Shown one piece after another: positions 26,443-26,963 of a DNA stretch of 64,000 nucleotides. Position 1 is the stretch's first letter; the number at the start of each line of letters is the position of its first letter. Source of the DNA: an uncultured Alphaproteobacteria bacterium (lineage in GTDB: Bacteria; Pseudomonadota; Alphaproteobacteria; RF32; CAG-239); assembly GCA_944391395.1 (NCBI GenBank), contig CALXTI010000006.1:2503-66502 (forward strand), given 5' to 3'. The notes beneath the pieces are model-generated. The model had not been told where the DNA came from. It did not search any database and saw nothing but the letters and a program-made list of their open reading frames with translations. Made by a program: the position numbers and the translations under genes.

Positions 26443-26963
26443 TGCTTTTCTCCCAAATGTTAATACAAAACTTCTTATACAATTTTAGAATACCAGATTT
26501 GAAAAAATTTTGCCAGTTTTTTTTCTGCCTTTGAAAACATGGTAACCTATTGTTTTTGCAATAAAGTAAGACCGTGTAACAAAAAATTCATATTCAATTT
26601 TGGCATTCAACCGGTTCTTTTATAAACAAAAAAGGTAAAAAAAATTCTAACATTTGCCGACCATTTGCCGATGGAAATCATGACGGGACTAAAACTCCCG
26701 TATTTTTCATGAAGAGCATATTTAAAGAAACGATTTTTGTTATACACGGATAAGACAAAAAAATATCGTATCCAAAACAGCACCGGCGTAACGACATCCG
26801 CTTTGGCGGCGCTTTATATTTATATCGGCTAACCCGCTCTATTAACTCTATTTTAATATTATTAGTTGTATCTTTTAGACAACGGGAAACCGGCAAACGT
26901 GCGCAAAAATGCTTATCATGTTGTTTTTGCTGCACTTTTGCCATAGGAGTATAAAAAACAAAC
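26443..26963. promoter_or_regulatory. AT-rich ~520-bp divergent control region between the T4SS operon (-) and the type IVb pilus operon (+)
   Basis: No ORF longer than 60 aa is present. It contains a direct repeat catttgccga x2 (26651-26671) and a hairpin plus T-run (26683-26711). Confidence 0.5.

What the first reader, a model, noticed from the sequence alone, without database searches (positions are those of the whole stretch)
26443..26963. Shared ~520-bp AT-rich divergent control region with a direct repeat and a hairpin
The T4SS operon (-) and the pilus operon (+) diverge from the same intergenic region. This suggests co-regulation. The region has a tandem direct repeat catttgccga x2 (26651-26671), a candidate regulator-binding site, immediately followed by a stem-loop acggga-ctaaaac-tcccgt plus ATTTTT (26683-26711). 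The stem-loop could be a small-RNA terminator or an attenuator. There is no ORF in this region.
Basis: seen in the sequence. Interest (0 to 1): 0.5.

Follow-up and report, generated by a model that had tools for sequence, protein, structure and literature searches.

The report
Divergent T4SS/pilus promoter region, variable spacer

Summary

The same gene arrangement occurs in at least 137 species-level genomes of uncultured gut and rumen Alphaproteobacteria. Comparison across them splits the gap into three parts:
- **Left module (26443-26659).** It lies at a fixed distance from virB2. It has an invariant 16-mer, an IHF-like site and a CTGGCA-N18-TATTCT promoter.
- **Right module (26822-26963).** It lies at a fixed distance from the pilus operon. 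It has an invariant TTAA-N7-TTAA box (the CtrA consensus), a TATNNT -10 element and a covarying leader hairpin.
- **Spacer between them.** Its length and sequence vary between species.

The repeat and the hairpin both lie in this spacer. They are found only in conspecific contigs, have no other copy, and match no Rfam family. They are most likely a young slippage duplication and a lineage-specific inverted repeat, not conserved regulators.

The region is an ordinary back-to-back promoter region. The conserved modules are undescribed, and their regulators, possibly CtrA and IHF, are inferred and not shown.

The parts
26101..26442 (-). First gene of the T4SS operon, a TrbC/VirB2-type pilin of 113 aa
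   Evidence: Pfam PF04956, E = 9.7e-10. Its position next to the gap is conserved in all related loci.
26443..26659 (-). Left conserved module, the virB2 upstream region (about 217 bp)
   Evidence: An nhmmer profile of this block finds it in 66 of 93 related loci. It stays at a constant 147-152 nt from the virB2 ATG. RNAalifold predicts no pairs in 47 sequences, so the conservation is at the DNA-sequence level.
26448..26454 (-). Shine-Dalgarno sequence GGGAGAA of virB2
   Evidence: AGGAGAA is invariant or nearly so in 47 sequences.
26466..26480 (-). Conserved GTATAAGAAGTTTTG, the predicted first 15 nt of the virB2 transcript
   Evidence: Near-invariant columns 155-170 of alignment A4. The position relative to the transcription start is inferred, not mapped.
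26487..26492 (-). Candidate -10 element TATTCT of the virB2 promoter, preceded by TGG
   Evidence: T47 A47 T45 T40 C44 T47 of 47 sequences. It is the most consistent sigma-70-like site in the alignment, found in 25 of 47 sequences.
26511..26516 (-). Candidate -35 element CTGGCA, 18 nt upstream of TATTCT
   Evidence: CTGG is invariant or nearly so.
26543..26555 (-). IHF-like site AAACAATAGGTTA (consensus WATCAANNNNTTR)
   Evidence: At most 1 mismatch to the consensus in 37 of 47 species, and a perfect match in 6. The consensus is recalled from memory and binding was not tested.
26575..26590 (-). Invariant 16-mer TGAATTTTTTGTTACA, factor unknown
   Evidence: 15 of its 16 positions are identical in all 47 unique sequences; the remaining position is 44/47. 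This holds even where the neighbouring 604-aa protein is only about 30% identical. It is the only exact copy in the window.
26651..26671 (+).
   Evidence: It is seen only in conspecific L011 and L012. L001 has a single diverged copy, CGTTTTGCGT, at that place.
26660..26821 (.). Species-specific spacer between the two modules
   Evidence: It cannot be aligned between species. Anchor-to-box distance ranges from 121 to 518 bp. No other copy exists in the window or in 212 loci.
26678..26712 (+).
   Evidence: -11.1 kcal/mol, z = -2.9. It is not conserved.
26822..26963 (+). Right conserved module, the pilus-operon promoter and leader
   Evidence: An nhmmer profile finds it in 38 loci. It is aligned.
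26842..26856 (+). TTAACTCTATTTTAA, a TTAA-N7-TTAA box matching the CtrA-binding consensus
   Evidence: Present in all 29 unique right blocks and in 40 of the 93 loci held at that point. In the 19 loci measured it always lies 119-125 nt before the ATG. The consensus is from PMC11264516.
26869..26874 (+). Candidate -10 element TATCTT (TATNNT), 12 nt after the box
   Evidence: GTTGTATC is conserved. No canonical -35 element accompanies it.
26892..26942 (+). Conserved leader stem-loop that ends 2 nt before the Shine-Dalgarno sequence
   Evidence: Arms 26892-26909 and 26925-26942, -22.2 kcal/mol, z = -2.9. In 29 species the median z is -2.0, against -0.1 for a control segment. 13 of 17 pairs show compensatory change.
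26964..28778 (+). First gene of the pilus operon, a 604-aa protein with no known domain
   Evidence: No Pfam, NCBIfam or PDB match. It has 475 homologues, and those that carry a name are from Alphaproteobacteria MAGs.

Best explanation
The gap is a back-to-back pair of promoter regions, each tied to its own operon, joined by a spacer of no conserved function.

**Left module (26443-26659, read on the minus strand).**
- It most likely holds the virB2 promoter: CTGGCA, 18 nt, TATTCT. Transcription would start near 26480, giving a leader of about 38 nt.
- Upstream regulatory DNA sites sit at fixed positions. An IHF-like bend site lies about 70 nt upstream of the start. An invariant 16-mer, TGAATTTTTTGTTACA, lies about 100 nt upstream and is probably bound by an unidentified activator.

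**Right module (26822-26963).**
- It most likely holds an activator-dependent pilus promoter. A TTAA-N7-TTAA box occupies the -35 position and is followed 12 nt later by TATCTT. Transcription would start near 26881.
- In an alphaproteobacterium the obvious candidate for the box is the response regulator CtrA.
- The leader of about 83 nt folds into a long stem-loop (26892-26942) that ends just before the ribosome-binding site. It probably sets mRNA stability or translation.

**Spacer.** Both sit in the spacer, and neither is needed for the conserved design.

**Shown and inferred.** Shown: the conservation pattern, the fixed and variable distances, the motif matches, and the structure statistics. 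Inferred: the transcription start sites, the identity of the factors (CtrA about 0.35-0.4, IHF about 0.4), and the role of the leader hairpin.
For: - **Synteny and spread.** (137 species-level genomes encode a relative).
- **Three-part structure of the gap.**
- **Module occurrence.** The left block is in 66 loci and the right block in 38.
- **Distances.** The left anchor lies 147-152 nt from the virB2 ATG. The box lies 119-125 nt from the pilus ATG. Anchor-to-box distance is 121-518 nt.
- **Left module is a DNA-level element.** RNAalifold gives 0 pairs in 47 sequences. CTGGCA-N18-TATTCT is the most recurrent promoter-like site, in 25 of 47. The IHF consensus is matched with at most 1 mismatch in 37 of 47.
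- **Right module.** TTAA-N7-TTAA is invariant in 29 unique sequences. The consensus, and the usual single site at -35 of CtrA-activated promoters including pilA, are stated in PMC11264516.
- **Leader hairpin.** Individual folds differ in arm sequence. Median z is -2.0 against a control of -0.1, Wilcoxon p = 2.8e-6. Covariation is 0.349 against shuffles of 0.174 (0 of 500) and slid controls of at most 0.154.
- **Spacer features are confined to one species.**
Against: - No transcript data exist, so all promoter and start-site calls are pattern matches.
- The window has only 2 TTAA-N7-TTAA sites where chance gives 3.1, so there is no sign of a regulon here. I could not check whether these genomes encode CtrA.
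- The right -10 element lacks a partner -35, and the Caulobacter -10 consensus GCtANAWC is matched only in part.
- The covariation count was made on an alignment fitted to the model. Plain MAFFT alignments gave RNAalifold no structure.
- Sequences in the z-score test are phylogenetically related, so the p-values overstate independence.
- Lack of conservation does not prove that the repeat and hairpin have no species-specific role.
Confidence: 0.72

Rival explanations
1. The tandem CATTTGCCGA repeat is a binding site for a regulator that co-controls both operons. The hairpin plus T-run terminates a small RNA or acts as an attenuator.
For: - The 11-bp period equals one helical turn, as in tandem sites of OmpR-type regulators.
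- The hairpin meets the terminator pattern and folds with z = -2.9.
- The 10-mer with up to 1 mismatch is slightly over-represented in the window: 17 matches against 10.65 +/- 2.98, with 2 of 100 shuffles reaching 17.
Against: - Both features are missing from every other species that keeps the same operons and promoter modules.
- The spacer length varies four-fold.
- The other window matches to the 10-mer, by coordinates, fall within ORFs.
- No gene or conserved promoter lies upstream of the hairpin on the plus strand, so there is nothing evident for it to terminate.
- There are no Rfam hits.
- One terminator-like site is what shuffles give.
Confidence: 0.08
2. The spacer provides a species-specific extra promoter for virB2. 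On the minus strand this is TCGGCA (from the repeat), 16 nt, then TGtTAGAAT (26671 to 26644). It would give a long leader of about 200 nt that carries the whole left module. The duplication would have created or repositioned its -35 element.
For: The promoter scan reports this site with an extended -10 TG. The TTAGA part belongs to the extended left block, which is conserved in about 25 species.
Against: - The final T of the -10 element and the TG are not conserved (TAGAAG, TAGAGA and TAGAGC in relatives).
- Three promoter-like sites in this AT-rich stretch is what shuffles give (2.3 +/- 1.6).
- The -35 element matches only 3 of 6 positions.
Confidence: 0.08
3. The conserved non-coding blocks are an origin of transfer (nick site, IHF site and inverted repeats) for a conjugative T4SS, not promoter elements.
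For: - Known origins of transfer often lie between divergent operons, are AT-rich and carry IHF sites (my own knowledge).
- An invariant 16-mer could serve as a nick region.
Against: - No relaxase or coupling-protein domain was found in the ORFs of at least 90 aa between VirB11 (1172) and the PilT-like gene (38504) that were scanned.
- In this window the cluster lies between core genes, with yidC/engB on one side and trx/addAB on the other. The divergent virB2/pilus gene pair recurs across a whole clade, which fits vertical inheritance and not a mobile element.
- Both blocks keep exact distances to start codons, as promoters do.
Confidence: 0.03
4. The TTAA-N7-TTAA box is not a CtrA site. It is the site of another dimeric regulator, or simply an AT-rich UP or -35 substitute that matches the CtrA consensus by coincidence.
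For: - The 7-nt spacer of the box is itself conserved (C-N-C-W-A-T-T), which goes beyond what the half-site consensus TTAA-N7-TTAA specifies.
- There is no motif enrichment in the window.
- The presence of CtrA was not verified.
Against: - Both half-sites and the 7-nt spacing match exactly in 29 divergent species.
- The box sits where CtrA boxes sit in CtrA-activated promoters, including a pilin promoter.
- The host is an alphaproteobacterium.
Confidence: 0.35

Closest known systems
CtrA-activated promoters of Caulobacter crescentus, including pilA (PMC11264516)
   Same: - A TTAA-N7-TTAA box lies over the -35 position of a promoter that lacks a canonical -35 element.
- The promoter drives pilus genes in an alphaproteobacterium.
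- The half-sites are 11 bp apart.
   Different: - The pilus here is type IVb (PilL/N/O/Q/R, bundlin-like pilin), not the Tad/Cpa pilus.
- There is a single box, whereas pilA has four sites.
- CtrA itself, its binding and the start site are untested.
- The -10 element is TATNNT, not GCtANAWC.
IHF-assisted virB promoter of Brucella abortus and similar activator-plus-IHF promoters (my own knowledge, not checked here)
   Same: A T4SS operon promoter with an IHF-like site some tens of bp upstream and a further conserved upstream site.
   Different: The sequences are unrelated, the upstream factor is unknown, and no binding data exist.
5' leader stem-loops that stabilise or gate bacterial mRNAs, such as the ompA 5' hairpin (my own knowledge)
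   Same: A long hairpin lies close to the predicted 5' end and ends just before the ribosome-binding site. Its structure is conserved while its arm sequence drifts.
   Different: - It matches no Rfam family.
- Only TTG(T/A)TTT in the 3' arm is conserved.
- In some species the 3' arm runs into a T-tract, so an attenuator role is possible.
   Same: A 6-bp stem with 4 G-C pairs, a 7-nt loop, and 5 T after the stem.
   Different: - No transcription unit ends there.
- The stem is short and of modest stability.
- It is not conserved, and the count equals the chance expectation.

Membership tests
CtrA-dependent promoter | TTAA-N7-TTAA(C) recognition motif | tested here: met
   TTAACTCTATTTTAA at 26842-26856. 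The motif is invariant in 29 unique orthologous sequences. The consensus is from PMC11264516.
CtrA-dependent promoter | Box overlaps the -35 position of a mapped promoter | tested here: inconclusive
   A conserved TATNNT lies 12 nt downstream, which would centre the box near -32. No start site has been mapped.
CtrA-dependent promoter | The genome encodes CtrA, and CtrA~P binds and activates | not testable with these tools
   Only 64 kb of this genome and flanks of at most 4 kb of its relatives were available, and no ctrA lies in them.
CtrA-dependent promoter | The motif recurs upstream of other regulon genes | tested here: not met
   The window has 2 sites where chance gives 3.1 +/- 1.7. The second is at the virB4 stop codon.
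   6 pairs, 4 of them G-C, a 7-nt loop, and ATTTTT. The fold is -11.1 kcal/mol.
   It sits between two divergent promoters with no upstream plus-strand gene. It is absent outside the species.
   It is present only in L011 and L012, which are conspecific. L001 has a single diverged copy and the other species have none.
   17 matches at up to 1 mismatch, against 10.65 +/- 2.98. By coordinates the others fall within ORFs, not upstream of genes, and dinucleotide shuffles do not model codon bias.
IHF-binding site | WATCAANNNNTTR consensus (recalled from memory) | tested here: met
   AAACAATAGGTTA at 26555 to 26543 on the minus strand has 1 mismatch. At most 1 mismatch in 37 of 47 species and a perfect match in 6. 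Binding was not tested.
Sigma-70-type promoter (virB2) | -35 and -10 hexamers 16-18 nt apart | tested here: met
   CTGGCA-N18-TATTCT sits at the same alignment column in 25 of 47 species. The strict scanner did not report it in the window.
Any Rfam RNA family | Covariance-model score at or above the gathering threshold | tested here: not met
   0 hits in the window and in 6 related loci. The best sub-threshold hit in the gap scores 28.9 bits against a cut-off of 55, and it is to a yeast snoRNA model.
Origin of transfer | An associated relaxase and coupling protein | tested here: not met
   No such domain was found in the ORFs of at least 90 aa in the cluster that were scanned.

The most novel reading that the evidence does not exclude
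The invariant 16-mer TGAATTTTTTGTTACA, the IHF-like site and the TTAA-N7-TTAA box with its covarying leader hairpin may together form a previously undescribed, clade-wide regulatory circuit. This circuit would couple a chromosomal, relaxase-less T4SS and a type IVb pilus to the cell cycle or to a host signal in uncultured gut Alphaproteobacteria. The non-coding DNA here is better conserved than the proteins it controls.
Probability: 0.25. Interest if true: 0.55.

Novelty: new member of a known kind. Interest (0 to 1): 0.28.

Why it matters
**For the scan.** An eye-catching repeat and hairpin in an AT-rich gap can be evolutionary noise, and the functional parts may be visually unremarkable.

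**For biology.**
- These gut and rumen Alphaproteobacteria are uncultured. Their conserved chromosomal T4SS-plus-pilus apparatus, many of whose proteins match no known family, is probably central to how they interact with hosts or neighbours.
- The promoter modules defined here give concrete handles for study: a 16-mer, an IHF-like site, a CtrA-type box and a leader hairpin.
- With these handles one can look for the regulators, read expression from metatranscriptomes, and build reporters in tractable alphaproteobacteria.

Tried and rejected
- **Rfam.** Gathering threshold on the whole window and on six related loci, and E-value mode on the gap: nothing credible.
- **Plasmid database.** A blastn search of 26300-27100 found no match.
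- **RNAalifold on MAFFT alignments.**
  - On the leader it gave 0 pairs because the stems shift register. I replaced it with per-sequence z-scores and a covariance-model alignment.
  - On the left module it also gave 0 pairs, which I take as real absence of RNA structure.
- **Metagenome scan for 1-3 copies of the 11-mer next to the hairpin.** It found 0 hits, so copy-number polymorphism could not be assessed.
- **Metagenome scan for the 16-mer.** Of the 120, 107 are chance matches in unrelated DNA and only 13 carry the left block, so it says nothing about a regulon.
- **Mobile-element remnant.** The spacer has no second copy anywhere in the data held.
- **Sigma-54 promoter at CTGGCA.** Rejected by eye on the alignment (no dedicated scan), because the -12 GC is absent.
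- **Other motifs compared from memory.** The Agrobacterium vir box, the Irr ICE box, the CRP/FNR and LexA motifs, and GANTC methylation sites. None fits, and the gap has no GANTC.
- **Small ORFs of 21-58 aa in the gap.** They are unconserved, and the conservation shows no 3-nt periodicity.
- **Large spacer insert of L004.** It has no ORF of note, and neither it nor the L015 insert has an Rfam match.

Full report
**1. The observation**

The sequence is as described.
- CATTTGCCGA occurs at 26651-26660 and again at 26662-26671. This is an 11-bp unit repeated head to tail (CATTTGCCGAC / CATTTGCCGAT).
- The hairpin is ACGGGA (26683-26688), a 7-nt loop, TCCCGT (26696-26701), and then ATTTTT. An outer TCATGA / TCATGA pair lengthens it (26678-26712).
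- The fold is -11.1 kcal/mol with z = -2.9 on either strand.
- The pattern scanner finds this one terminator-like site where shuffles give 1.0 +/- 1.0.
- The gap is 521 bp at 33.2% GC, against 45.7% for the window.
- A near-tandem exact 10-mer turns up in 2.7% of shuffles of the gap. Eight such repeats exist in the real 64 kb, so it is a small duplication of an ordinary kind.
- Only mechanical ORFs of 21-58 aa lie wholly inside the gap.

**2. Surroundings**

- The minus strand carries three TrbC/VirB2-like genes, a 96-aa gene, VirB4, several orphan proteins, two VirB8, CagX/VirB9, a 1208-aa beta-flower/RHS protein, a 1426-aa TrbI/VirB10 and a VirB11-like ATPase.
- The plus strand carries a 604-aa orphan, TcpQ/PilL, a secretin, PilO, a 510-aa orphan, a T2SSE ATPase, a T2SSF protein and a bundlin-like pilin, followed by a convergent PilT-like ATPase.
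- The cluster sits between yidC/engB on one side and trx/addAB/rph/aroK/xerC/ATP-synthase/ftsH on the other. No relaxase or coupling-protein domain was found in the cluster ORFs that were scanned. It is therefore a chromosomal apparatus and does not look like a mobile element.

**3. Relatives**

- The 604-aa protein has 475 homologues, all from metagenomes. The hits that carry a name are uncultured Alphaproteobacteria from gut samples.
- Contigs carrying eight of the closest homologues all show the same layout: VirB2 on one side, the gap, then the 604-aa gene, PilL and PilN.
- A scan of species-representative genomes found 137 that encode a relative. Nearly all are labelled as Alphaproteobacteria MAGs from human, rumen, deer, yak or rabbit gut.

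**4. Anatomy of the gap from comparison**

Aligning ten gaps shows three parts.
- **Left block (26443-26659).** It is nearly invariant in long runs.
- **Right block (from about 26822 to the ATG).** It has a sharply conserved core.
- **Middle.** It cannot be aligned and varies in length.

They recur only in L011 and L012, whose 604-aa protein is 99% identical, so these contigs are the same species. There the 168-nt middle is 100% identical.

In the next nearest species (L001, 68% protein identity) the place of the repeat holds a single diverged CGTTTTGCGT, and the hairpin is gone. No other copy of the middle exists in the window or in 212 fetched loci. Terminator-like hairpins are not a recurring property of this spacer (5 in 27 unique spacers, against 2.2 expected).

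Profiles of the two blocks find the left one in 66 loci and the right one in 38. The left anchor (GTAACAAAAAATTC) lies 147-152 nt from the virB2 start in nearly every species. In the 19 loci measured, the right core lies 119-125 nt from the 604-aa start. The distance between the two ranges from 121 to 518 nt. Each module is therefore tied to its own gene, and the DNA between them is filler.

**5. The left module**

Read in the direction of virB2, it contains the following, in order:
- TGAATTTTTTGTTACA, in which 15 of 16 positions are identical in all 47 unique sequences. This includes species whose 604-aa protein is only about 30% identical.
- AAACAAT-N-GTTA, which fits the IHF consensus WATCAANNNNTTR (recalled from memory) with at most 1 mismatch in 37 of 47 species.
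- An A-run.
- CTGG(C/T)A, then 18 nt, then TATTCT preceded by TGG.
- GTATAAGAAGTTTTG.
- AGGAGAA and the ATG.

RNAalifold finds no conserved pairing, so the constraint is on DNA sequence. CTGGCA-N18-TATTCT is the most recurrent sigma-70-like arrangement in the alignment, found in 25 of 47 sequences.

I read this as a promoter that starts near 26480, with a bend site about 70 nt upstream and an activator site about 100 nt upstream. The factor that binds the 16-mer is unknown.

**6. The right module**

- The core is (C/T)ATTAAC-NCWATT-TTAA(T/C)-N8-GTTGTATC.
- TTAA-N7-TTAA is exact in all 29 unique sequences. This is the consensus CtrA-binding motif.
- Most CtrA-activated promoters carry a single such site over the -35 position, and the pilin promoter pilA is a classic target (PMC11264516).
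- Twelve nt after the box lies a conserved TATNNT (TATCTT at 26869-26874). No canonical -35 element is present, as expected for an activator-dependent promoter.
- The Caulobacter -10 consensus GCtANAWC (PMC13004042) is matched only in part.
- Cautions: the window has just two TTAA-N7-TTAA sites, which is no more than chance, and I could not check that these genomes encode CtrA. I therefore put the CtrA reading at roughly 0.35-0.4.

**7. The real conserved hairpin**

- From about +12 of the predicted transcript to 2 nt before the Shine-Dalgarno sequence, the leader forms a long imperfect stem-loop. Its arms are 26892-26909 and 26925-26942. It folds at -22.2 kcal/mol with z = -2.9.
- Nearly every species has such a hairpin at this place, but with different arm sequences. 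Only TTG(T/A)TTT in the 3' arm is conserved.
- Across 29 unique sequences the median z is -2.0. A 75-nt control taken just upstream of the box gives -0.1 (paired Wilcoxon p = 2.8e-6). These sequences are related, so the p-value is generous.
- MAFFT alignments gave RNAalifold nothing, because bulges shift the register.
- A covariance model built on my structure aligned 11 sequences. In that alignment 13 of 17 pairs show compensatory change, and the covariation score is 0.349. Column shuffles give 0.174 (0 of 500 reach the observed value) and slid partners give at most 0.154. The caveat is that this alignment is fitted to the model.
- Of the three differences between the window and its conspecific L011 within the hairpin, two lie in the stems and keep pairing (A-U to G-U, and U-G to C-G); the third is in the loop.
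- Its role (mRNA stability, translation gating or attenuation) is inferred only. In some species the 3' arm runs into a T-tract.

**8. Verdict on the interpretation**

'Divergent control region' is right. 'The repeat is a regulator site and the hairpin is an sRNA terminator or attenuator' is not supported, because both are confined to one species within the only unconstrained part of the gap. A shared operator is not indicated either.

The 10-mer is only marginally over-represented in the window, and its other matches fall within ORFs.

A species-specific role cannot be excluded. One example is the scanner's TCGGCA-N16-TGtTAGAAT promoter on the minus strand, which uses the repeat as its -35 element. 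The number of such sites, however, equals the chance expectation.

**9. Novelty and score**

The kind of thing is ordinary: back-to-back promoters, an activator box at -35, an IHF-like site and a leader hairpin. These particular modules and the apparatus they control appear undescribed. My two literature searches found nothing on this clade's T4SS, and several cluster proteins match no family.

The finding as written deserves a low score. The conserved modules give it some residual interest.

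Noticed in passing
window 1172-38504: A chromosomal T4SS (VirB2-B11 set) lies back to back with an R64-like type IVb pilus cluster. The pair is flanked by core genes, and no relaxase or coupling-protein domain was found in it. The divergent virB2/pilus gene pair is shared by at least 137 species of uncultured gut and rumen Alphaproteobacteria.
   Followed up: partly
window 24506-26442: Three tandem VirB2/TrbC paralogues. The third (387 aa) has a long C-terminal extension with a weak collagen-like hit. Its length varies from 335 to 409 aa between species.
   Followed up: no
window 2159-10028: A giant TrbI/VirB10 (1426 aa) and a 1208-aa protein, both packed with beta-flower (PF21785/PF21784) and DUF3659 repeats. 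The 1208-aa protein also has RHS repeats.
   Followed up: no
window 26964-28778: The 604-aa first gene of the pilus operon has no Pfam, NCBIfam or PDB match. It has 475 homologues and a nearly invariant C-terminal stretch of about 110 residues. Other cluster ORFs (622, 237, 436, 1394 and 510 aa) are also orphans.
   Followed up: partly
window 21578-21690 (minus strand): The window's only other TTAA-N7-TTAA site overlaps the virB4 stop codon. It is followed by a good extended -10 promoter-like site (TTGGCG-N17-TGgTAGAAT) ahead of the 622-aa gene, which suggests a possible internal promoter.
   Followed up: partly
L076 1191-2740: One species carries a tandem duplication of virB2 together with part of its upstream module and a TTAA-N7-TTAA box. 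This gives two near-identical VirB2 genes, each with its own copy of the control DNA.
   Followed up: partly
L004/L036 3430-3880; L015 about 2440-2880: In these species the spacer is 300-400 bp longer and appears richer in G+C. L004 has no convincing ORF, and neither L004 nor L015 has an Rfam match.
   Followed up: partly
L050, L052, L053, L055, L056, L061, L067, L069 and others, just upstream of the left block: Distant lineages lack the TTAA box. Instead they share a palindrome-containing motif, CACAAA(T/A)(T/C)TGTGGATT(C/T)TTTT, which includes a DnaA-box-like TGTGGAT and a GANTC site.
   Followed up: no
window 54898-55815: An N6-adenine DNA methyltransferase of 305 aa. It hits the CcrM model far below that model's equivalog cut-off (123 bits against 830) and lies next to the HPr and EIIA-Man genes.
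   Followed up: no
L018 (CAVBCV010000002.1) and L080 (JAISVX010000001.1): The record titles name Lachnospiraceae and Lactobacillaceae, yet the contigs carry this alphaproteobacterial locus. They are probably mis-binned or mislabelled MAG contigs.
   Followed up: no
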